This document shows, in pieces, positions 1-47,294 of a stretch of 53,137 bases of DNA. Location: the IMG/VR virus record IMGVR_UViG_2645727867_000003, one strand, 5' to 3'. Position numbers and translations under genes: made by a program. This DNA is from a virus. Its lineage: Duplodnaviria; Heunggongvirae; Uroviricota; Caudoviricetes. The notes under the pieces were generated by a model that did no database searches, was not told where the DNA came from, and worked only from the letters and a program-made list of their open reading frames with translations. The stretch's first letter is position 1. The number at the start of each line of letters is the position of its first letter.

Positions 1-524
1 ATGACAACTCAAATCTCTGTTGAAACCATCTCCCCGTTCACCCATAACCAGATTCCTGTTATTACCACCGAACTTTTGGCGCAGCTTTATGGCACCGAAA
101 TTCTGAATATCCAGGTTAACTTCACCAGAAACAAAGAGCGTTTTGTCGAAGGAAAGCACTTTTTTAAAGCATCGGGTGAAGAATTAAAAAATTTGCGACT
201 TACTTTAAGTAAGTCACAAAACCCCATATCTCCCAAAGCCCGCCCCTCACCCTATGGACAGAACGCGGAGCAGCACGCCACGCAAAAATGCTGGAAACCG
301 TTCAGGCGTGGGAAGTGTTCGAAAAACTCGAAGACTGTTATTTCAGCCAAAAACAGCCACCAGCAGCACAAAACCCCCCAACCCAAAATGATGGATACGC
401 ATTACTGATCCACCTCGATAAACACGGGCAGGTCGAATTCACGGAAAAAATCCCCGCCGATGCGATGGTATGCACTCTGGAACGGTTTTTATCTGGAGCA
501 ACACGACTGGATCGTTGCCCGTAA
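1..524 (+). pseudogene. ORF6N-domain antirepressor-like gene, disrupted by a frameshift near 230-245
   Basis: Frame 1 (1..408) matches the N-terminus of the intact paralog at 42437..42988 (ITTELLAxLYGTE...RFxEGKHFFKA). Homology then continues in frame 2 (288..524, ...AARHAKMLETVQAWEVFEKLED...). Confidence 0.5.
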
Positions 525-930
525 AGAACAACTGGTAGAACGGTTGATGCGGTTTTAATGATTGCAAAACCCCGGATGATCACTGGGGTTAATTTTATCA
601 AGCGTGATTGCCGCTAATCGCCCTCTCTCTGATTGAGCGTAAATCATCCAGGTTATGCAGTTCTTCCTGGACGTAATTGTCACAGGCTCCAGCAATGATA
701 GACTCTCAATTTTAAGAGCCGTAGATAAAGAGCCTGCACATACGTTCATTAAGCAAACGCTTCAAAATGTCTGGAAAAAAATACGGACTTCCGAAAATCT
801 GAAAAATCATCCATATCAACAGGATGCACGAAAAATGAGAGTTCCGTCACTTCCGGAATTAACTTTTCCGTGGCACTATTTACCCGGCATAGTGTATATC
901 TTCACAATAATGACATAATCAACGCAGTTC

Positions 931-962
931 ATGGGGGAGGTGATGGTCCCCCATCTTTTTGT
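931..962 (+). terminator. intrinsic terminator (8-bp stem ATGGGGGA/TCCCCCAT followed by T-run)
   Basis: Perfect inverted repeat with 8-nt loop followed by CTTTTTGT on the plus strand. Confidence 0.5.
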
Positions 963-965
963 CTG

Positions 966-1637
966 TTATTCCTGTGCCCAGCCAACCCTGTATACCAGGA
1001 TCTCATCCGCACTGCTCAGCGATTCCAGGTCCTTCTTCATGGTGCGCTGGCGAATGTGGATTTCCATCCCTTTGCTGAACATCGCCTGCTCTGCCGCTTC
1101 ACTCAGCGCAATAAGCTCTTCTGCTGTCACCTGTACATCATTGTTTTCCGCATCCGTCCAGAAAAACGCCTCCGGCAGTTTCCCCGCTTTCGCTGCCGCC
1201 ACCGATGGCTCAAGGCGCGTCTGCGTTGACTTTCCGTAGTCCCATTTCCGGCCATTGTGCTCAAACGTGTAGTTCGCCGCCTCCATCGCATTACGCCACG
1301 CGTTTATTTCATCGCCCTTCATCCCGCGCGCTTTCTCCGCGGTCAGAGTATCAACGACGTTTTCCCCGTCAAACTTCCACCGCCCGGAGATATCAGCTTT
1401 GCGGTTTTCTGCTGTATCCTCAACCTCCACCACACTCTGCCCCACTGGCCACAGCATCGACACATCCTTACTGATACTCGTGATTATGCCTTCGCTGTCA
1501 TAAACCAGCTTCAGCGTATCCGCCTTAAATGACGACTGGCTTTCATACCAGTCACGGCCATCCTCTGCCTTCAGGTACATTGACCCCGGAACATCCGACT
1601 TCTCAGGAGTATAACGTTGCAGATTTTTAAGATTCAT
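966..1637 (-). CDS. putative tail fiber assembly/chaperone protein (called mainly from position downstream of stf)
   Basis: 223-aa ORF immediately downstream of the side tail fiber gene. No clear match to the lambda Tfa C-terminal motif. Confidence 0.45.
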   Translation of the reverse strand: MNLKNLQRYTPEKSDVPGSMYLKAEDGRDWYESQSSFKADTLKLVYDSEGIITSISKDVSMLWPVGQSVVEVEDTAENRKADISGRWKFDGENVVDTLTAEKARGMKGDEINAWRNAMEAANYTFEHNGRKWDYGKSTQTRLEPSVAAAKAGKLPEAFFWTDAENNDVQVTAEELIALSEAAEQAMFSKGMEIHIRQRTMKKDLESLSSADEILVYRVGWAQE

Positions 1638-1705
1638 TTCTTCTCCTCATACGAATATTCAGGACAGGGTACCCGTTTAAGCTTTCCGCGCCCGGAAAAA
1701 TCATG

Positions 1706-2974
1706 TTATTCATGTTCCACCGTAACCCACTGGCTGCCATCATGAACCTGAAGGAAGCCGTAAGTGACAGCGGTGACACAGGCTGCCCCTAAATTGCCGT
1801 TCGTCAGTGATACCGGAGCCGTCCTGATATTCAGAATCACAGCGCCATCAGGGGCTGCATTTTCCCCCTGCGCACCGCCATAAAAAGAGGGGAAAACGAC
1901 TGTGCTGGAGGTGACTTCTGTTTTCTCGCTGATACGCACTCTGTTCGCCTGTGAATCTGCGCCATCCTTCCCTGCGGGGCCCGTCGGCCCGGTATCACCT
2001 TTCGGCCCCCGCTCACCGGCAGGGCCTGCCGGGCCGGGGTCACCTTTATCCCCTTTTTCCCCTTGTGGTCCTCTGGGGCCGGTAGCACCCTGTGGACCTC
2101 GATCACCAGGCTCGCCTTTTTCCCCCTTAGGACCGACGCTACCTGTTGGCCCCGGAGGTCCAGGTATACCCTGTGGACCAGCCGGACCTGTATCGCCTCT
2201 CTCCCCTGCCACACCCTGCAATCCTTGCGGCCCTCTCTCTCCGGCGGGTCCCCTCGGACCTGCCGGGCCCTGAGGCCCCGGCTCCCCTCTGGGGCCAGTG
2301 TCACCTTTTGGTCCCGGAGGTCCTCCGGGATCTCCCGGCTCTCCTTTTTCGCCTCTGGCTCCGGTTTCACCTCGCGGGCCCGCAGGACCAGCAGGCCCCT
2401 GAATACCCGCCTCTCCTTGCGGTCCCACGGGTCCGGTTTCACCCCGTGGCCCCTGTACCCCCTGTGGGCCTGCCTCACCACGCTCACCCTTTGGCCCACG
2501 CTCGCCGGTATCGCCTTTTGGCCCGGGAATACCCTGTGGCCCGGTGTCTCCCTTATCCCCCTTCGGTCCCCGCGCATTCTCTGCCCGTTTCTTCGCTTCC
2601 TCTGCACTCGCCGCTGACGCTTCCGCACGTTTCAGGATTTCCGCGGCCACCGCTTCCAGCTCTGCAAGGGCTTTCGGGTAATACTGTGCGTCCTCCAGGT
2701 CCATCAGAAATTTATTCAGCGTTCCCGGTGCAGAGTCCGCCTTCACCAGAATGTCACCCACATATGACGGCGCGTACCCTTCCGTGTTCAGCGTCACCCG
2801 GTACAACCCCGGCTCAACATCCATACTGTAACTGCCGGTTTCCCCCGGCTGACCATACGCCACCGTGGTGACAATCACCGTCTCCGTTGTGCGTCGCGCT
2901 TTCAGCTCTATCGTGCATCCCGGTACCGGCTTACCGGCCCCGTCCTTCAGCACACCAGAAATTTTAACCGTCAT
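1706..2974 (-). CDS. stf: side tail fiber protein with long collagen-like Gly-X-Y repeat region
   Basis: N-terminus [17 protein letters not shown]...CTIELKARR resembles lambda Stf. The central ~270 aa are Gly-X-Y triplets ([20 protein letters not shown]...). SD GGAAAGG precedes the ATG at 2974. Confidence 0.85.
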
Positions 2975-2986
2975 ACCTTTCCACCA

Positions 2987-3018
2987 ATAAAAAAGCCCGC
3001 AGCAGTAATGCCACGGGC
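2987..3018 (-). terminator. intrinsic terminator between lom and stf
   Basis: Minus-strand hairpin GCCCG...CGGGC followed by T6, about 14 nt upstream of the stf RBS. Confidence 0.5.
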
Positions 3019-3123
3019 TTCAGGACAGTGTAACTTTACGTTTCCTCAGACGCAGCTCACCCATAAGGTGGATGAACATGCTCATTATACCAATATTTAC
3101 AGAAGATAAAGCTGTATCTGCCG

Positions 3124-31853: not shown

Positions 31854-31859
31854 ACATGT

Positions 31860-31885
31860 AAAAAGGCTCCTGCGATGAGGAGCCT
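31860..31885 (-). terminator. minus-strand intrinsic terminator convergent with the sRNA-A terminator
   Basis: Hairpin GGCTCCT-N6-AGGAGCC followed by T5 on the minus strand. Confidence 0.5.
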
Positions 31886-31899
31886 GGATGTATGCCTAA

Positions 31900-32900
31900 T
31901 CTCTGTATACTGCATGGTGCCGGGTGCCTCCCGGTGAACAAATGTCCGTGATATCAGTCGGCCACACAGGAAATGATACGATATCACCCCTCCGCACAGG
32001 GGGATTCACCATGCCCGTTTTTTTTAACAAACTCCTCATCAATCAGACAATCATCAACCTCATGAATTGTGAGGAATTTAACATTTCACAACACAGCCTT
32101 TTCCCTGCATAAAAAAGCCCCTCCGGAGAGGGGCTTCGCTACGTGTCTGTTAACCATATGCATGATGCCGGGTGCCTCCCGGTGAGTTCAGTATCAGCAC
32201 CTGAACCCGCACAGAAAGGATAGAGTAGAAACACCTGCGCTGATATGCCCCTCCGCTCAGGGGGATTCACCATGCAGAACTTTTTTAACAACTCCCCGTA
32301 AGACAGGCAAGCATCAACCATCTGAACTGTGAGGAATTTAACATTTCACAACACAGCGTTTTTCCTGCATAAAAAAGCCCCTCAGGAGAGGGGCTGACAC
32401 TGCGTATCTGTATCATCATGAACATGGTGCCGGGTGCCTCCCGGTGAGTCCAGTCTGGTGTCCCTGAACCCGCGTTTGCATTGCCTACAACAGAAAAGAT
32501 GCAAATCACACCAGTCGCCCCTCCGCACAGGGGGATTCACCATGCAGAACTTTTTTAACAACTCCCCCTCAGACAGGCAAGCATCAACCACCTGAACTGT
32601 GAGGAATTTAACACTTAACAACACAGCCTTTTCCCGCACAAAAAAAGCCCCTCCGGAGAGGGGCCGATCGCTATGTATACACCATAAGCAGCATAGTGCC
32701 GGGTGCCTCCCGGTAGATTCAGCCTGACTACTGAATCTGCGTATTGTGACCATCGCTATGGAGACCATGTCAGACGCCCCTCCGCACAGGGGGATTCACT
32801 ATGCTGGCTCGTTTTTACAAGACTTCCATCGATCAGACAATAGCCCATCAACCGAATTGTGAGTCATTTAACATTTCCATGAGGTAACTGATATCCAGCT
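31900..32900 (-). repeat. tandem array of four ~260-bp structured repeat units (candidate minus-strand sRNA genes), each with a hypervariable internal hairpin
   Basis: Each unit has conserved blocks GTGCCGGGTGCCTCCCGGTGA, CCCCTCCGCACAGGGGGATTCACCATGC, GAATTGTGAGGAATTTAACATTTCACAACACAG and a minus-strand terminator GCCCCTC-CGGA-GAGGGGC plus T6 (32111-32134, 32371-32394, 32641-32664). A 50-70-nt unit-specific segment lies between the first two blocks. Confidence 0.6.
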
Positions 32901-34591: not shown

Positions 34592-34599
34592 GTCCATAA

Positions 34600-34860
34600 G
34601 AAAGCCCCTCCGGAGAGGGGCTGAAGCCGCATTTCTGTATCACCATGAGCATGGTGCCGGGTGCCTCCCGGTGAGTTCAGCCCGGTGACACCAAACCCGC
34701 GTATTCTCGCTTACGATCATCAAAGAGATCATACCGTTCACCAGTCGCCCCTCCGCACAGGGGGATTCACCATGCGAAATTTTTTTAACAAATGCTCAGT
34801 CTGACAGGCAACTGTCAACTTACTGAATTGTGAGGGATTTAACACTTCACAGCACAATAT
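34600..34860 (-). repeat. solitary fifth copy of the ~260-bp structured repeat unit
   Basis: Contains all four conserved blocks plus its own variable segment. Minus-strand terminator at 34605-34628. Confidence 0.55.
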
Positions 34861-41181: not shown

Positions 41182-41209
41182 ACATAGTGTAACACTATGT
41201 GTTATATAA
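41182..41209 (+). promoter_or_regulatory. operator palindrome overlapping a -10 element upstream of the higB-like gene
   Basis: ACATAGTG-TAA-CACTATGT perfect inverted repeat followed by TATATAAA. SD GAGG before the ATG at 41225. Confidence 0.45.
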
Positions 41210-41224
41210 AATGCAGAGGCAGGT

Positions 41225-41597
41225 ATGCGAATTTTCAAAAACGCCTGGTTTGAACGTTTCGCCCGAAAACATCGGATTTCCGATAAATCGCTGCGCAAAA
41301 TCGTGGAGCAGGCCGATAAGGGGGATCATATCCGCAAATTTGGGTAGTGGTGTCATTAAACAAAGATTAGCCCGAAGTGGTGGCGGAAAATCAGGCGGTT
41401 ACCGGACAATAATTTTTTACCGCGTTGCAGAAAAAGCCTTTTTCATCTACGCATACGCAAAGAATGAACGAGAGAATATCACTGCTATAGAGGAAAATGC
41501 TTTTCGAAAAGCCGCTCCCCATGTCCTCAATCTTACTGATGAACAGCTGGCACAATTGATTCAACAAGGCCAGTTCACGGAGGTACCCAATGAGTAA
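41225..41597 (+). pseudogene. HigB/RelE-like toxin gene interrupted by a +1 frameshift in a G5 tract
   Basis: Frame A from ATG 41225 reads MRIFKNAWFERFARKHRISDKSLRKIVEQADKGDHIRKFG* (stop at 41345). The rest of the family sequence (…GVIKQRLARSGGGKSGGYRTIIFYRV…) continues in frame B. The shift maps to GGGGG at 41310-41314. Confidence 0.6.
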
Positions 41598-41907
41598 AAA
41601 TTACCGCAGTGATGCACTTGCATCTGTACATGAAATGATGGAGTCACTCCATGATATCGGTGCAATCACAAAACAAACTATGCGCGAATTCGATGAAACT
41701 TGTCTTCAGCCTGCGCCGGTAATGTCTCCAGAAAGGATCCGTGCACTGCGAGAACGAGAGCATCTGTCTCAACCTGTTTTTGCCAGATACCTCAACGTCA
41801 GTAAAAACCTGATATCAGACTGGGAACGAGGAGTGAAACGCCCGGGAGGTGCAGCTCTTCGGCTTCTTTCAGTTGTCGAGAAAAACGGGATCCAGGTAAT
41901 ATCCTGA
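41590..41907 (+). CDS. HigA-like antitoxin (XRE-family HTH)
   Basis: …LSQPVFARYLNVSKNLISDWERGVKRPGGAALRLL… HTH. Start overlaps the toxin stop. Confidence 0.7.
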   Translation: MSKNYRSDALASVHEMMESLHDIGAITKQTMREFDETCLQPAPVMSPERIRALREREHLSQPVFARYLNVSKNLISDWERGVKRPGGAALRLLSVVEKNGIQVIS

Positions 41908-42009: not shown

Positions 42010-42165
42010 TTACTCCTCAGGTTCGTAAGCTGTGAAGACAGCGACCTCCGTCTGGCCGGTTCGGATTCGTACCTCGCAGAGGTCTTTCCTCGTTACCAGT
42101 GCCGTCATTATGACGGTTAAACAGATGACAATCAGGGCGATTAACATCGCCTTTTGCTGCTTCAT
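42010..42165 (-). CDS. hokD: Hok/Gef-family type I toxin (HokD/RelF-like)
   Basis: MKQQKAMLIALIVICLTVIMTALVTRKDLCEVRIRTGQTEVAVFTAYEPEE. SD AGGAG upstream. Confidence 0.8.
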   Translation of the reverse strand: MKQQKAMLIALIVICLTVIMTALVTRKDLCEVRIRTGQTEVAVFTAYEPEE

Positions 42166-42436
42166 AGCCTGCTTCTCCTTGCCTTTCGGCACGTAAGAGG
42201 CTAACCTACATGTGCAAAGCATGAAATTGGCCTCAGATTAATGTTAAGCGTCCTGCAAGACGCGTAATGTTAACTGGGGCTTTTCTCTGTCTGCCTTACG
42301 GCGGCATGCCCGAGGCAGACAGCCTCAAGCACCCGCAGCAATTCTACTTAACTCTTCTTTCCCCGCAAATCATTTTATCCCCGATGGTAATGTTCTCCCG
42401 ATATGGGAATTCCCATATCAAGGTTAACTCAATCGG

Positions 42437-42988
42437 TTAAAGCTCCATTAATTTTCCGGCCAGTTCATCTCGTGGCATTACCAGCCATCCGCGCGATTTA
42501 AGCAAAGCCAGGGCTTCTTCAACCGTCACCAGCTGGCCTGGCGCATAACTTCGGATGAAGGCGGTTTTATCGTCACGGATCGCCAGGTGAAAATCGATAT
42601 TCATTTTTCCCATAGCCCGCTCTTTCTCGTACTGGTTGAAGTAACTGTCTTCGAGTTTTTCGAATACTTCCCACGCCTGATCGGTTTCGAGCATTTTTGC
42701 ATGACGGGCTGCTCCGCGTTCTGTCCAGAGGATGAGAGTGCGGGTTTTGGGAGAAATTTTCACCTCATTTTGCGACTCGTTTAAAACTAGTCGCAAATTT
42801 TTGAGCTCATCACCAACAGCTTTAAAGAAGTGTTTTCCCTCAATAAATCGAGATTTATTTTCATGGTGATTCTGCTGTATACGGATTGCTTCTGTTCCGT
42901 AAAGGCGGGCGAGTAACTCAGTTGTGATTACAGGAATCTGGTTATAAGTGACAGGGGAAAGGTTTTTGACAGTAACTTGAGTCGTCAT
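42437..42988 (-). CDS. ORF6N-domain antirepressor-like protein (intact paralog)
   Basis: N-terminal …ITTELLARLYGTE…RFIEGKHFFKAVGDELK… ORF6N-like. 183 aa. Confidence 0.6.
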   Translation of the reverse strand: MTTQVTVKNLSPVTYNQIPVITTELLARLYGTEAIRIQQNHHENKSRFIEGKHFFKAVGDELKNLRLVLNESQNEVKISPKTRTLILWTERGAARHAKMLETDQAWEVFEKLEDSYFNQYEKERAMGKMNIDFHLAIRDDKTAFIRSYAPGQLVTVEEALALLKSRGWLVMPRDELAGKLMEL

Positions 42989-43329
42989 GATAACGCCCTC
43001 TGGTTGATGAATTTAACTATCACCACCTTCAGGTCTCAATCATCAGGTGGCGAGACGTACAGGGTTGAGACTACCGGATCAACCAACCGGCCAGCCTTTC
43101 GGCTGCCCCATACGCCTCACCATAATTCAGATGTGCGTGCGCATACGACAATAAAAAACACGCTCGCGGCGTGTGTCTGTCGCGGTTGAATATCCGGGGT
43201 CTCAATCCCGACGGTCAACTCGACCGTGCGGTGAATATAGCCCCGGATTAGTAATTACGTCAACCCCAGCGGCAAATCGAATAAACCACCAGCGCTACCG
43301 CCATTGCAACTCCTGCCGTTACGAATGCC

Positions 43330-46129: not shown

Positions 46130-46589
46130 GCTTGAAAGCGATTGCTTTTTCTATAAGCTCGTCTGTCTCACGTTCCACAACAGCTGGATCTGCAAAAAGC
46201 AGCCCGGACTCCACCACATCGCCATATTCTTTGTTTAACCCGGCAATCATGTACGTAATGCTTTTTCCGTCAGTAATTTCGCGGTACAACCTGAAATCAC
46301 TAATCCGGATAGCCTCCATAATTGCCGGAATCAGCGCCGTGAATTTTTCACGCTTATCCCTGGTGTCGATAGCCTTCCAGCGTTCGAATATCTTCACCCG
46401 GTTAACGCCAAGCGCACGCTGATCAACCCCGCCATCATCAAGCGTGACACGCTGAACATCGATGTTCGGGCGTTCCTGTAGAGCCCAGAAGGCTTCAGTG
46501 ATTAATATCGTCGCCTGCTCCTGCGTCATTCCTGGTCGGCTTATCCAGGCATCCAGGGCATCGCGTGCCTGCTCAAGGGTGATTTTCAT
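46068..46589 (-). CDS. YdaT-like protein
   Basis: Partial similarity to Rac YdaT as recalled (…REKFTALIPAIMEAI…). Lies directly after the Cro-like gene. Confidence 0.45.
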   Translation of the reverse strand: MKITLEQARDALDAWISRPGMTQEQATILITEAFWALQERPNIDVQRVTLDDGGVDQRALGVNRVKIFERWKAIDTRDKREKFTALIPAIMEAIRISDFRLYREITDGKSITYMIAGLNKEYGDVVESGLLFADPAVVERETDELIEKAIAFKRAYRHQYQQKAGWNYEPSFC

Positions 46590-46803
46590 TGTTCAACCGC
46601 CCCGCCCGCTTCGTCTTACGATATTCGTCATAAACTTTGGGGTCATACTGAAGCTCCCCGCCGGATGCCTCTTGCAGGCGCATCGCGCGACCTTCAGGTA
46701 CTAGCTCCCCTTTCCAGCTATAAAGCGAAGCCAAACGAATACCAGCAGCTTGTGCAAGTTTTGTTTTTGAACCGAAATACAAAAGTGCATCAGTTTTAAG
46801 CAT
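46573..46803 (-). CDS. dicC: DicC-like Cro-type repressor
   Basis: MLKTDALLYFGSKTKLAQAAGIRLASLYSWKGELVPEGRAMRLQEASGGELQYDPKVYDEYRK… is near-identical to E. coli DicC as recalled. Confidence 0.85.
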   Translation of the reverse strand: MLKTDALLYFGSKTKLAQAAGIRLASLYSWKGELVPEGRAMRLQEASGGELQYDPKVYDEYRKTKRAGRLNNENHP

Positions 46804-46886: not shown

Positions 46887-47294
46887 ATGGATACAAAAAA
46901 TTTAACCATTGGCGAACGCATTAGACATCGCCGAAAAAACCTCAAATACACCCAAAGGTCTCTTGCTAAAGCCCTGAAAATTTCTCATGTATCGGTTTCA
47001 CAATGGGAACGGGATGTTAGCGAACCTACAGGGAAGAATCTTTTTGCCCTCAGCAACGTACTGCAGTGCTCGCCAACATGGATTCTATTTGGCGATGAAG
47101 ACAAGCAGCCATCACCACCTATTGAGGAGCCAGTTGCTCTATCCCCCAAAGAACATGAGCTCCTTGAGCTTTTTAATGCATTGCCTGAATCAGAACAGGA
47201 TGCTCAGCTCACCGAGATGCGCGCCCGAGTAAAAAATTTCAACAAACTCTTTGAAGAGTTATTAAAAGCCCGTCAACGAACAAACAAAAGATAA
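46887..47294 (+). CDS. dicA: DicA-like CI-type repressor (XRE HTH)
   Basis: MDTKNLTIGERIRHRRKNLKYTQRSLAKALKISHVSVSQWER… 135 aa, near-identical to E. coli DicA as recalled. Confidence 0.9.
   Translation: MDTKNLTIGERIRHRRKNLKYTQRSLAKALKISHVSVSQWERDVSEPTGKNLFALSNVLQCSPTWILFGDEDKQPSPPIEEPVALSPKEHELLELFNALPESEQDAQLTEMRARVKNFNKLFEELLKARQRTNKR

What the first reader, a model, noticed from the sequence alone, without database searches (positions are those of the whole stretch)
1..524. Two diverged ORF6N antirepressor-like paralogs in inverted orientation bracket ~42 kb of the prophage; the left copy is frameshifted
The left-end copy (1..524, plus strand) and the intact copy (42437..42988, minus strand) share an N-terminal ORF6N-like domain but have different C-terminal halves. 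The left copy switches frame near 230-245. Their placement next to the tail-fibre end and next to the replication region suggests modular exchange at these junctions.
Basis: seen in the sequence. Interest (0 to 1): 0.4.

Follow-up and report, generated by a model that had tools for sequence, protein, structure and literature searches.

The report
RNA-gated antirepressor cassettes, one decayed
The two look-alike genes are copies of a known phage switch, an antirepressor gene kept silent by small antisense RNAs encoded just upstream; the copy next to the replication genes is intact, and the copy at the prophage end is a real, already annotated pseudogene whose RNA part still looks whole.

Summary
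Window 1-558 (+) and 42437-42988 (-) are colinear ORF6N proteins of about 185 aa (56% identity). They are the only long inverted repeats in the window.

The left copy is a true pseudogene:
- One T is missing between 243 and 244.
- A second lesion lies at 486/487, so the gene ends at 558, not 524.
- The 243/244 deletion is present in all seven assemblies aligned. RefSeq already calls the gene "frameshifted".

That stretch holds a promoter, an isrK/a1b1 RNA and a C4 antisense RNA (Rfam hits above threshold). The unit is therefore the known P1 immI / Gifsy-1 isrK-anrP type of RNA-gated antirepressor cassette. Gifsy-1 AnrP is a full-length homologue.

The two cassettes differ at the C4 recognition segments, with matching changes in their targets, so they are probably not cross-regulated.

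The left slot, next to the ompW attachment site, holds an intact ORF6N gene in one related prophage and a Rha gene behind the same kind of RNA leader in two others. Cassette exchange there is supported.

This is an ordinary, known kind of element. The one open point is whether the orphan left RNA leader still acts in trans.

The parts
1..558 (+). Left ORF6N / AnrP-family antirepressor pseudogene. It reads in frame 1 for 1-243, frame 3 for 244-486 and frame 1 again for 487-558, with the stop at 556-558. One T is deleted between 243 and 244, and 5 bp (TTTAA) are deleted between 486 and 487.
   Evidence: Translations. Alignment to the right copy, to six allelic E. coli copies and to intact relatives. 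The frame-corrected protein matches PF10543 (75.2 bits) and phrog_2379 over 1-187/187. PGAP calls it a frameshifted pseudogene.
568..590 (+). Terminator-like hairpin just after the left pseudogene's stop codon.
   Evidence: Consensus scan on L001:12568-12590, which equals window 568-590. This is a pattern match only.
42437..42988 (-). Right, intact ORF6N / AnrP-family gene (183 aa). It has a confident N-terminal ORF6N domain and a poorly modelled C-terminal part of about 60 aa.
   Evidence: ORF list. PF10543 at 73.4 bits. phrog_2379 full length. 100% identical in many E. coli genomes. 4747 homologues found. 48% identical and colinear with Gifsy-1 STM2616. AlphaFold2 model.
42996..43039 (-). 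Predicted C4 target region on the right ant mRNA. b2 (TTGAGAC) lies at 43039-43033, a2 (ATCAACCA) at 43008-43001 and the Shine-Dalgarno GAGGG at 43000-42996, 7 nt before the ATG.
   Evidence: Read directly from the sequence. Complementary to the C4 b' segment GUCUCAA and to the C4 loop UUGGUUGAU. The same positions co-vary with C4 across 104 unique modules.
43043..43127 (-). C4 antisense RNA of the right cassette.
   Evidence: Rfam RF01695, 69.4 bits (gathering 45), full model 1-87. MFE fold -44.4 kcal/mol with the expected three-way shape.
43153..43227 (-). isrK-like RNA of the right cassette. It carries the a1/b1 decoy sites and an intrinsic terminator (stem 43174-43158 followed by a T-run).
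   Evidence: Rfam RF01394, 51.2 bits (gathering 50). An overlapping sub-threshold c4-a1b1 hit, RF03163, 27.1 bits. Terminator scan.
43234..43263 (-). Promoter-like site of the right cassette (TTGACG, 18 nt, TATATT), 6 nt upstream of the isrK hit.
   Evidence: Consensus scan, 10 of 12 matches. The left cassette has TTGACA-18-CATATT at the equivalent position.
46887..47294 (+). Prophage repressor (135 aa) with an HTH_3 domain only and no S24 self-cleavage domain. I infer that it is the target of the antirepressor.
   Evidence: Pfam scan. Divergent from a P22_Cro-like gene at 46573-46803. The targeting is an inference by analogy with DicA/Rem and the Gifsy repressors (PMC3121763).

Best explanation
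What it is
- The finding is the protein-coding part of two separately acquired copies of one known kind of phage regulatory cassette.
- The cassette order is: sigma-70-type promoter, IsrK-like RNA (a1/b1 sites plus a terminator), C4 antisense RNA, a2/b2 target sites that abut the ribosome-binding site, and a gene of about 185 aa for an ORF6N-type antirepressor of the Gifsy-1 AnrP family.

How it most likely works (inferred from P1 immI and Gifsy-1 isrK-anrP)
- Read-through transcripts carry C4.
- C4 pairs through its hairpin loop (a') and its 3' single-stranded segment (b') with a2/b2 and blocks translation of the ant gene.
- The short IsrK RNA carries the same sites (a1/b1) and can titrate C4 or remodel the leader, which releases translation.
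- The protein then lifts repression by the prophage's short, non-cleavable HTH repressor.

The two copies
- The right cassette (42437-43263, minus strand) is intact. It lies in the early-right operon between the replication genes and hokD, the usual place for such cassettes.
- The left cassette lies in the cargo slot next to the ompW attachment site and reads inward towards the tail-fibre genes.
- The left ant gene is dead: a 1-nt deletion shared by all seven alleles aligned, plus nonsense codons, homopolymer changes and a 5-bp deletion in various alleles.
- The left promoter and C4 RNA are unbroken.
- The two cassettes differ at both C4 recognition segments, with matching changes in their own targets. 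They are expected to be separate regulatory channels.
For: Shown
1. Homology covers about 270 bp upstream of both ATGs. By segment: isrK 75%, spacer 92%, C4 83%, a2b2/SD 77%.
2. Rfam C4 scores 71.0 bits (left) and 69.4 bits (right) against a gathering score of 45. Rfam isrK scores 59.3 and 51.2 bits against 50.
3. Promoter-like sites lie at equivalent positions in both cassettes.
4. The C4 b' segment, b1 and b2 change together. The left cassette has GUUCCAA / UUGGAAC / UUGGAAC and the right has GUCUCAA / UUGAGAC / UUGAGAC. Across IMG/VR modules:
   - left type: 74 and 73 of 76 unique modules carry their own-type b1 and b2, and none carries the other type;
   - right type: 24 and 27 of 28 carry their own type, and none carries the other.
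5. Among 41 alleles of the C4 loop, 90% have a perfect complement of at least 6 nt at the a2 position and 80% at a1. For non-cognate pairs the figures are 14% and 11%.
6. Gifsy-1 STM2616 (AnrP) lies directly after Q and after an isrK-type leader. It is a colinear 187-aa homologue. The published orf45 ending in AUGA is recovered at the expected place (PMC4825925).
7. The P1-like phage RCS47 has isrK + C4 upstream of an Ant that shares the ORF6N domain.
8. Pseudogene status of the left copy rests and on PGAP.
9. Of 61 IMG/VR loci with recognisable neighbours, 57 place the cassette in the early-right operon. All 136 marker genes are co-oriented with it.
10. The repressor has no S24 domain.

Inferred
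- Repression by C4, the role of IsrK, and the protein's action on the repressor.
Against: - No expression or binding data exist for this prophage.
- The upstream ORF that couples translation in P1 (icd) and in Gifsy-1 (orf45, ending AUGA) is not conserved here. The matching ORF stops after 14 aa in the right cassette and 21 nt before the ATG in the left. Control would therefore have to act directly on the ant ribosome-binding site. This differs from both studied systems.
- The c4-a1b1 Rfam model is matched only below its gathering score (38.6 and 27.1 bits against 46.7).
- The left IsrK terminator stem carries mismatches and is not found by the terminator scan.
- The a'/a2 complement of the left cassette is only 6 nt.
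- 'Antirepressor' is an annotation. For AnrP, induction of the antQ operon and of Gifsy-1 was shown, but direct binding to a repressor was not (PMC4825925). ORF6N is a predicted DNA-binding fold, and the model's only PDB resemblances are weak matches to Ski/Dachshund and APSES domains.
- The window has no LexA box (CTGT-N8-ACAG), so the inducing signal is unknown.
Confidence: 0.8

Rival explanations
1. The left cassette is not merely debris. After its ant gene died, its promoter, IsrK and C4 RNAs were kept as an orphan trans-acting regulator. Its C4 would silence the antirepressor mRNA of incoming or co-resident phages that use the same recognition alleles, or its IsrK would activate them. This would give RNA-based cross-immunity or cross-talk between prophages.
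For: - The 84-nt left C4 is 100% identical to the C4 that precedes intact ant genes of 185, 187 and 221 aa in other (pro)phages. Their a2/b2/SD regions are the same. Cognate targets therefore exist in nature.
- Among seven alleles, the 280-nt leader has 4 point changes and no indels, and none breaks a C4 helix. The ORF has 7 point changes, two of them nonsense, plus indels at two sites.
- The left C4 Rfam score (71.0) is as good as that of the intact cassettes.
- In the published systems C4 and IsrK act in trans (PMC4825925).
Against: - The contrast between leader and ORF has no statistical power. At the ORF's rate, about 1.7 events are expected in C4 and 1 is observed.
- The left IsrK terminator is degraded.
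- Megablast finds no second near-identical copy of the left leader in RM10466 or 2012C-4431, the two pseudogene-bearing genomes listed, so no cognate target was seen in the same genome.
- Recent pseudogenisation alone explains an intact leader.
Confidence: 0.2
2. The frameshift is a sequencing or assembly artefact, and the left gene is really intact.
For: Homopolymer runs are present nearby: CCCC at 244-246 and a poly-C tract at 374-379 whose length differs among assemblies.
Against: - The same 1-nt deletion is present in all seven independent complete genomes aligned, from different serotypes and laboratories.
- The gene carries further, allele-specific lesions: TAG at nt 112 in four alleles, TAG at nt 136 in one, and an in-frame TAA or a 5-bp deletion at 486.
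- PGAP flags it as a pseudogene in every record opened.
Confidence: 0.02
3. The two copies arose by duplication within this prophage, or are the scars of an inversion or of a tandem prophage fusion. In that case the 42-kb 'bracketing' reflects a rearrangement.
For: - They are the only long inverted repeats in the window.
- They share a 26-nt exact run in the leader.
Against: - They are only 56% identical as proteins, and they differ in both C4 recognition segments.
- Each has much closer relatives elsewhere. The left copy is 87% identical at the nucleotide level to IMG/VR locus L078 and 82% identical to an intact gene in the same ompW slot of strain 135. The right copy is identical in many genomes and syntenic in 12 IMG/VR loci.
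- Other ompW prophages fill the left slot with a Rha cassette.
- No inverted arrangement appears among the genomes in the hit tables that I compared.
Confidence: 0.03
4. The ORF6N proteins are not antirepressors. They are sequence-specific DNA-binding regulators of the KilA-N/Bro/APSES type that activate or repress phage promoters directly.
For: - ORF6N is a predicted DNA-binding domain.
- The confident N-terminal domain of the model resembles the Ski/Dachshund DNA-binding domain and, more distantly, the Mbp1 APSES domain (TM to target about 0.5-0.6, E of 0.1 or more).
- For AnrP, the published evidence is increased antQ-operon transcription, not repressor binding (PMC4825925).
Against: - The P1-family Ant shares this domain (63% identity over residues 18-123). 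The RCS47 record annotates its ant function as experimentally demonstrated in the genus. From memory, not re-read here, P1 Ant was reported to bind the C1 repressor (Riedel et al. 1993, cited in PMC8201110).
- All the closest PHROG families are annotated as anti-repressor.
- The prophage repressor lacks a cleavage domain and so needs some antagonist.
Confidence: 0.15

Closest known systems
Gifsy-1 isrK-orf45-anrP locus of Salmonella (Hershko-Shalev et al. 2016, PMC4825925)
   Same: - The order of parts is the same: promoter, IsrK RNA with terminator, a C4-like processed RNA (STnc1160 / 'orf45'), then a protein of about 187 aa.
- STM2616 (AnrP) aligns colinearly with both copies and is 48% identical to the right copy.
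- Rfam isrK is matched above threshold.
- It also lies in the early-right/nin-Q region, as the right copy does.
   Different: - orf45, which ends AUGA on the anrP start and mediates translational coupling, is not conserved here.
- The C-terminal thirds of the proteins are strongly diverged.
- This prophage carries a second, decayed cassette beside the attachment site.
immI region of phages P1 and P7 (c4 antisense RNA, icd, ant). Citron & Schuster 1990, recalled from memory and as summarised in PMC8201110.
   Same: - C4 RNA (Rfam RF01695) lies upstream of an antirepressor gene.
- Complementary sites lie both upstream (a1/b1) and downstream (a2/b2) of C4 at the ribosome-binding site.
- Different recognition alleles give separate specificities, which is the logic of P1/P7 heteroimmunity.
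- The Ant of the P1-like phage RCS47 shares the ORF6N domain and has isrK + C4 upstream.
   Different: - There is no icd-like ORF between C4 and ant.
- The protein is about 185 aa, against 371 aa for the RCS47 Ant.
- The host element is an integrated lambdoid prophage with a Cro/CI-type switch, not a plasmid prophage with C1.
- Control of the promoter by the prophage repressor was not examined.
immI of phage P22 (mnt-arc-ant with sar antisense RNA). Recalled from memory.
   Same: It is a second, RNA-modulated antirepressor region placed far from the main immunity region, at the tail-gene end of the genome near the attachment site. This is the same genome position as the left cassette.
   Different: The regulators are unrelated (Mnt and Arc proteins, sar RNA), and the P22 Ant is a different protein apart from a shared C-terminal domain in some Stx-phage Ants. 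No sequence relationship was tested here.
P4 immunity (CI RNA with seqA and seqC)
   Same: PMC4825925 describes IsrK as a structural homologue of P4 SeqA. In P4 a processed antisense RNA pairs with sites upstream and downstream of itself. PGAP's 'ash family protein' ORFs (Pfam PF10554) lie exactly over the isrK + C4 leader in related ompW prophages.
   Different: In P4 the outcome is premature transcription termination of replication genes, not control of an antirepressor. This was not tested further.
Short non-cleavable repressors with dedicated antirepressors: DicA/Rem of Qin (bioRxiv 10.1101/2023.04.14.536235) and GfoR/GfoA of the Gifsy prophages (PMC3121763)
   Same: The repressor here is 135 aa with an HTH only and no S24 domain, the same length as DicA. 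The prophage also carries dicB, ydaT and hokD neighbours.
   Different: Rem and GfoA are small proteins unrelated to ORF6N, and GfoA is under LexA control. No LexA box was found here. Whether the ORF6N protein targets this repressor is untested.

Membership tests
Pfam ORF6N (PF10543) | Match to the domain profile above the curated cut-off (27.8 bits) | tested here: met
   Right copy 73.4 bits over residues 12-99. Left copy 75.2 bits over residues 12-97, but only after correcting the frame at 243/244. As encoded, the domain is cut after residue 81.
PHROG 2379 (anti-repressor, 187 positions) | End-to-end match of the whole protein | tested here: met
   Left (frame-corrected) 1-187/187, E = 9.7e-86. 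Right 1-183 against 1-187/187, E = 1.1e-77.
Rfam C4 antisense RNA (RF01695) | Covariance-model score above gathering (45 bits) over the full model, located upstream of the regulated gene | tested here: met
   Right: window 43043-43127 (-), 69.4 bits. Left: L001:11865-11948, which is -136..-53 from window position 1, 71.0 bits.
Rfam isrK (RF01394) | Covariance-model score above gathering (50 bits), including the 3' terminator hairpin | tested here: met
   Right 51.2 bits with a clean terminator. Left 59.3 bits, but with two non-canonical pairs, and its terminator is not detected by the scan.
Rfam c4-a1b1 (RF03163) | Score above gathering (46.7 bits) | tested here: not met
   38.6 bits (left) and 27.1 bits (right). 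The hits are significant by E-value but below threshold, and they overlap the 5' half of the isrK hits.
P1/P7 immI-type control | C4 recognition segments a' and b' are complementary to sites upstream (a1/b1) and downstream (a2/b2, at the RBS) of C4 | tested here: met
   b'/b1/b2 form 7-nt perfect complements in both cassettes. a'/a2 gives 8 nt (right) and 6 nt (left). Family-wide co-variation is shown.
P1/P7 immI-type control | An icd-like ORF lies between C4 and ant, and its translation is needed for ant expression | tested here: not met
   The ant ATG lies 53-56 nt after the end of C4. Only a 13-aa GTG ORF (right) or an ORF that stops 21 nt upstream (left) is present.
P1/P7 immI-type control | The Ant protein binds and inactivates the phage repressor | not testable with these tools
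   This needs biochemistry or genetics.
Gifsy-1 isrK-orf45-anrP | The downstream protein is homologous to AnrP | tested here: met
   STM2616 (187 aa) aligns colinearly with both copies and is 48% identical to the right copy. The leader and the first 350 nt or so of the ORF are 70.8% identical at the DNA level.
Gifsy-1 isrK-orf45-anrP | orf45 has a stop overlapping the anrP start (AUGA), giving translational coupling | tested here: not met
   Gifsy-1 orf45 (45 aa, -134 to +4) is recovered. Its counterparts here are 14 aa (right, ends at -90) and 36 aa (left, ends at -21).
Gifsy-1 isrK-orf45-anrP | Short IsrK acts in trans to activate translation of the read-through mRNA | not testable with these tools
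   This needs reporter fusions, as in PMC4825925.

The most novel reading that the evidence does not exclude
The left cassette has lost its protein but kept an intact promoter and a C4 RNA that is base-for-base identical to the one gating intact antirepressor genes in other E. coli phages. It could act as an orphan RNA 'immunity' locus that silences the antirepressors of superinfecting or co-resident phages with the same recognition alleles, or cross-activates them through IsrK. C4 leaders come in many loop alleles combined with at least three b' classes. They precede very different cargo: antirepressors of several folds, P4-type derepression proteins and Tad2-like anti-defence proteins. This would point to a combinatorial, RNA-addressed network of cross-talk among prophages.
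Probability: 0.15. Interest if true: 0.55.

Novelty: new member of a known kind. Interest (0 to 1): 0.27.

Why it matters
RefSeq already marks the left gene as a frameshifted ORF6N pseudogene.

The useful results are these:
- **Re-annotation.** Both genes belong to RNA-gated antirepressor cassettes whose RNAs are not annotated in the public records I opened.
- **Induction.** This STEC prophage has a repressor that cannot self-cleave. Its induction probably passes through the intact right cassette, so that cassette is the place to look for the inducing signal.
- **Two channels.** The two cassettes carry different C4 recognition alleles. The same logic underlies P1/P7 heteroimmunity.
- **Exchangeable slot.** The slot beside the ompW attachment site holds different effector genes behind one kind of RNA leader.

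If the orphan left leader is active in trans, it would be a simple natural case of a prophage keeping only the RNA half of an immunity module.

Tried and rejected
- **LexA control.** CTGT-N8-ACAG has no match in the window. One-mismatch hits near the left leader are at chance level. My recollection that the Gifsy antirepressors sit at the prophage's right end was wrong; the paper places them 1.3 kb downstream of the replication genes.
- **Cross-reactivity by energy.** Full-length RNAduplex energies for cognate and cross C4/target pairs were uninformative, because the calculation ignores intramolecular structure. I relied on exact complementarity and co-variation instead.
- **Selection on the left leader.** Seven alleles give 4 point changes in 280 nt of leader, against 7 point changes plus indels at two sites in 558 nt of ORF. 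This is too few events to test.
- **Fold of the protein.** The AlphaFold2 model is confident only for residues 10-118 or so. The C-terminal 60 residues have pLDDT 46-68. PDB Foldseek gave only weak Ski/Dachshund and APSES-like matches (E of 0.1 or more), so nothing can be said about the C-terminal part.
- **Frameshift as a recombination scar.** BLAST against one IMG/VR group starts exactly at nt 244. The alignment shows that homology continues across the site in closer relatives and that the lesion is a plain 1-nt deletion. I rejected the idea.
- **Programmed frameshifting.** Rejected. There is no slippery motif, and four of the seven alleles carry an upstream TAG.
- **Read support at 225-250.** Not available here. 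Agreement among independent assemblies was used instead.
Full report
**1. Where the window comes from**

Window 1-620 is 100% identical to the chromosomes of several STEC strains, including O104:H21 94-3024 and O91 RM7190. The spacing of the two copies matches 94-3024 exactly.

In those genomes the region is a lambdoid prophage integrated in ompW.
- An intact ompW lies next to the integrase.
- A 126-nt 3' fragment of ompW lies at the other end.
- The two share a core, CAGTGTGGTACATGGATATCGATACCAC.

The window runs from the ATG of the left ORF6N gene (position 1) to the stop codon of int (53137). The left gene starts 458 nt inside the attachment-site core. The 700 nt upstream of window position 1 are identical in 94-3024 and RM7190. 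I therefore used RM7190 (locus L001) for that flank.

**2. Checking the observation**

The three segments of the ORF6N pair are the only inverted repeats of at least 60 nt in the window. After frame correction the left product is 56% identical to the 183-aa right product over its full length (E = 6e-69). Both match Pfam ORF6N. Both also match PHROG 2379 'anti-repressor' from the first to the last profile position.

The C-terminal halves are therefore diverged (37-52% nt identity) but not different in kind.

The frame changes twice.
- Frame 1 runs to 243, frame 3 from 244 to 486, and frame 1 again to the TAA at 556-558.
- Intact relatives from IMG/VR read ...GCC CGC TCC CTC ATC CTC TGG... and ...CGG TTT AAA TTT TAT CTG GAG....
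- The left copy lacks the T of TCC, between 243 and 244.
- At the second site it has lost TTTAA, between 486 and 487. Sister alleles keep those bases but read TTT TAA, an in-frame stop.

**3. The frameshift is real and the gene is decaying**

Seven independent complete assemblies were aligned. All share the 243/244 deletion. Among them they show further lesions:
- CAG to TAG at nt 112 (four alleles);
- GAG to TAG at nt 136 (one allele);
- a poly-C tract at 371-379 that ranges from 6 to 11 C;
- presence or absence of the 5-bp segment.

PGAP annotates the locus as 'ORF6N domain-containing protein, frameshifted' (some records add 'internal stop') in every record opened. A sequencing artefact and programmed frameshifting can both be set aside.

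**4.

The similarity continues about 270 bp upstream of both ATGs. By segment the identity is promoter 62%, isrK 75%, spacer 92%, C4 83% and the stretch up to the ATG 77%.

Rfam places two RNA families above their gathering scores in both leaders:

| RNA | Left (positions from the ATG) | Right (window, minus strand) | Gathering |
|---|---|---|---|
| isrK (RF01394) | -238..-162, 59.3 bits | 43227-43153, 51.2 bits | 50 |
| C4 (RF01695) | -136..-53, 71.0 bits | 43127-43043, 69.4 bits | 45 |

A sub-threshold c4-a1b1 hit overlaps the 5' half of each isrK hit.

A promoter-like site (TTGACR, 18 nt, YATATT; 10 of 12 matches) lies 6-7 nt upstream of each isrK hit. The right IsrK ends in a clean intrinsic terminator. 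The left one is weakened by mismatches.

The public records carry no annotation over these leaders.

**5. Recognition sites and specificity**

In the P1/P7 immI system, two exposed segments of C4 (a' and b') pair with sites upstream (a1/b1) and downstream (a2/b2) of C4, at the ribosome-binding site. This description is established knowledge that I recall from Citron & Schuster 1990 and did not re-read. PMC8201110 confirms only that C4, Icd and Ant belong to immI.

The sites in this prophage:

| Site | Left cassette | Right cassette |
|---|---|---|
| b' (3' single-stranded segment of C4) | GUUCCAA | GUCUCAA |
| b1 (loop of the second IsrK hairpin) | UUGGAAC | UUGAGAC |
| b2 (hairpin loop about 40 nt after C4) | UUGGAAC | UUGAGAC |
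| a' (C4 loop) | UCGGUUUC | UUGGUUGAU |
| a2 (directly 5' of the Shine-Dalgarno GAGGG) | GAAACC | AUCAACCA |

To see whether this is systematic, I fetched loci from IMG/VR by the exact C4 3' segment. There were 120 loci of the left type and 40 of the right type.
- Among 76 unique left-type modules, 74 carry the own-type b1 and 73 the own-type b2. None carries the other type.
- Among 28 unique right-type modules, the figures are 24 and 27, again with none of the other type.
- Among 41 different alleles of the C4 loop, 90% have a perfect complement of at least 6 nt at the fixed a2 position and 80% at a1. For non-cognate pairs the figures are 14% and 11%.

The cassette logic is therefore strongly supported by co-variation. 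The two cassettes of this prophage belong to different specificity classes. In a cross pairing, the b segment would have one mismatch and one G-U in 7 nt, and the a segment only 4 complementary nt.

**6. Relation to studied systems**

*Gifsy-1.* The Gifsy-1 locus studied by Hershko-Shalev et al. (PMC4825925) is homologous through the leader and the first 350 nt or so of the gene (70.8% nt identity). Its product, STM2616 (187 aa), lies just after Q and aligns colinearly with both copies. By position it is the AnrP of the paper.

The paper shows three things:
- the isrK promoter drives a short IsrK and a read-through mRNA;
- the read-through mRNA is translationally silent until IsrK acts on it in trans;
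- AnrP raises antQ-operon transcription and induces Gifsy-1.

The 45-codon ORF of the paper, ending AUGA on the anrP start, is recovered in Gifsy-1. It is not conserved here: it is 14 codons in the right cassette and stops 21 nt short of the ATG in the left. Translational coupling is therefore not a shared feature. With a2 abutting the Shine-Dalgarno sequence, direct occlusion of the ant ribosome-binding site is the simplest reading. That is an inference.

*P1-like phages.* RCS47 also has isrK + C4 upstream of its Ant, which shares the ORF6N domain.

*The repressor.* The prophage repressor (46887-47294) is a 135-aa HTH_3 protein without an S24 domain, like DicA and the Gifsy repressors. Those are antagonised by antirepressors rather than cleaved (PMC3121763). 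That the ORF6N protein is the antagonist here is an inference.

**7. Where such cassettes sit**

Among 158 IMG/VR loci, 61 have neighbours recognisable with this prophage's proteins.
- 57 lie in the early-right operon.
- All 136 marker hits are on the cassette's strand.
- 12 reproduce the right copy's exact synteny (DUF1627 upstream, hokD downstream).
- 14 lie directly after RusA, among them several of the closest intact relatives of the left copy.

The right copy is thus in the standard place.

The left position, convergent with the tail-fibre assembly gene and 180 nt from the attachment-site core, does not appear in that sample. It is nevertheless conserved among the ompW-integrating prophages examined:
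- E. coli strain 135 has an intact 186-aa ORF6N gene there.
- Strains JNEC-KY178 and BEC1-S17-ESBL-09 have a Rha-family gene there.
- In all three the gene follows isrK + C4 hits (72-79 bits), and the attachment-site arm and promoter are nearly invariant in the alignment.
- The Rha cassette has a third b class (ACGCCAA with UUGGCGU at both target sites).

In the excised, circular phage this slot lies just downstream of int across attP and on the same strand. That corresponds to the 'b region' of lambda.

**8. Origin of the two copies**

They are not a recent internal duplication.
- The left leader and gene are 87% identical to IMG/VR locus L078 and 82% identical to the intact gene of strain 135. 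Against the right copy, ORF identity runs from 37% to 87% by segment.
- The left gene is mosaic. Nt 1-95 are 94.7% identical to Stx-phage ant. One IMG/VR group shares only the leader and nt 244-558 with it, around a Bro-N domain.
- The longest exact run shared by the two copies is 26 nt. The genomes in the hit tables that I compared keep the same relative orientation.

**9. The orphan leader**

The left C4 (84 nt) is identical, base for base, to the C4 that precedes intact ant genes of 185, 187 and 221 aa in other prophages. The b2/a2/SD regions are the same. Trans-repression of such genes by the orphan cassette is therefore chemically plausible.

The leader shows no indels and no helix-breaking change in C4 among seven alleles, while the ORF has several disabling lesions. 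The numbers are too small to show selection. I treat this as the most novel reading not excluded, not as a finding.

**10. Verdict**

It is already annotated at the protein level. The interpretation (modular exchange) is partly right, but the module is an RNA-gated cassette of a known kind (P1 immI / Gifsy-1 isrK-anrP). The 'bracketing' has no demonstrated meaning. Interest is modest.

Noticed in passing
window 31854-32043, 32105-32303, 32365-32574, 32638-32833 and 34592-34804 (minus strand): Five copies of the Rfam sRNA family STnc100 (119-172 bits). Four are head to tail with spacers of about 60 nt. They lie between the Q/antiterminator region and the lysis genes. An array of this size is unusual and unexplained.
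   Followed up: no
L174:2349-2624 and L175:2849-3124 (related ompW prophages); also homologues P0031 and P0035: PGAP's 'ash family protein' CDS (Pfam Phage_ASH, PF10554, 53.8 bits) lies exactly over the isrK + C4 RNA leader. Some ORF6N proteins in the databases are called with an N-terminal 'Ash' extension. At least part of the Ash protein family may be a translation of this conserved RNA region.
   Followed up: partly
IMG/VR loci L104, L116, L103, L018 and L097, about 85 nt downstream of the C4 3' segment: C4 leaders of the same b' class precede very different first genes: a 76-aa 'Derepression protein' (PF25738), an 85-aa Tad2-like Thoeris anti-defence domain protein (PF11195), and Bro-N, AntA/AntB and Ash+Rha proteins. 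The C4 gate appears to be a portable front end for antirepressor and anti-defence cargo.
   Followed up: partly
window 371-379: A poly-C tract inside the dead gene is 6 C in the window and 8, 9, 10 or 11 C in other assemblies, after A-to-C changes lengthened it. This is either real slippage in a neutral homopolymer or platform-dependent length error.
   Followed up: no
window 42010-42334 (minus strand) and 41199-41907 (plus strand): A hokD toxin gene with its sok antisense RNA (Rfam RF01794, 117 bits) lies directly downstream of the right cassette. Next to it is a RelE/ParE-like toxin gene paired with an HTH antitoxin gene. This neighbourhood recurs in 12 IMG/VR loci.
   Followed up: partly
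L004:1000-1160 and L001:11418-11543 (flanks of the window): The prophage replaces the 3' end of ompW with its own version, which is 96/126 nt identical to the displaced fragment. ompW therefore stays intact after integration. The shared core is about 28 nt.
   Followed up: partly
L171:3759-4109 and L172:3721-4032 (other E. coli prophages): ORF6N genes behind the identical C4 allele are annotated 'incomplete, missing C-terminus' (products of 138 and 104 aa) in other prophages. Truncated or decayed effector genes behind intact leaders may be common.
   Followed up: no
window 1706-2974 (minus strand): The tail-fibre protein contains a long collagen-like run of G-X-Y repeats (about 250 residues). 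Its length differs among related prophages: the gene is 1005, 1188 or 1269 nt in RM10466, ST130 and RM7190.
   Followed up: no
between window 620 and 42437: RM7190 carries 445 bp more than the window somewhere in this interval, although both ends are identical. The indel was not located.
   Followed up: no
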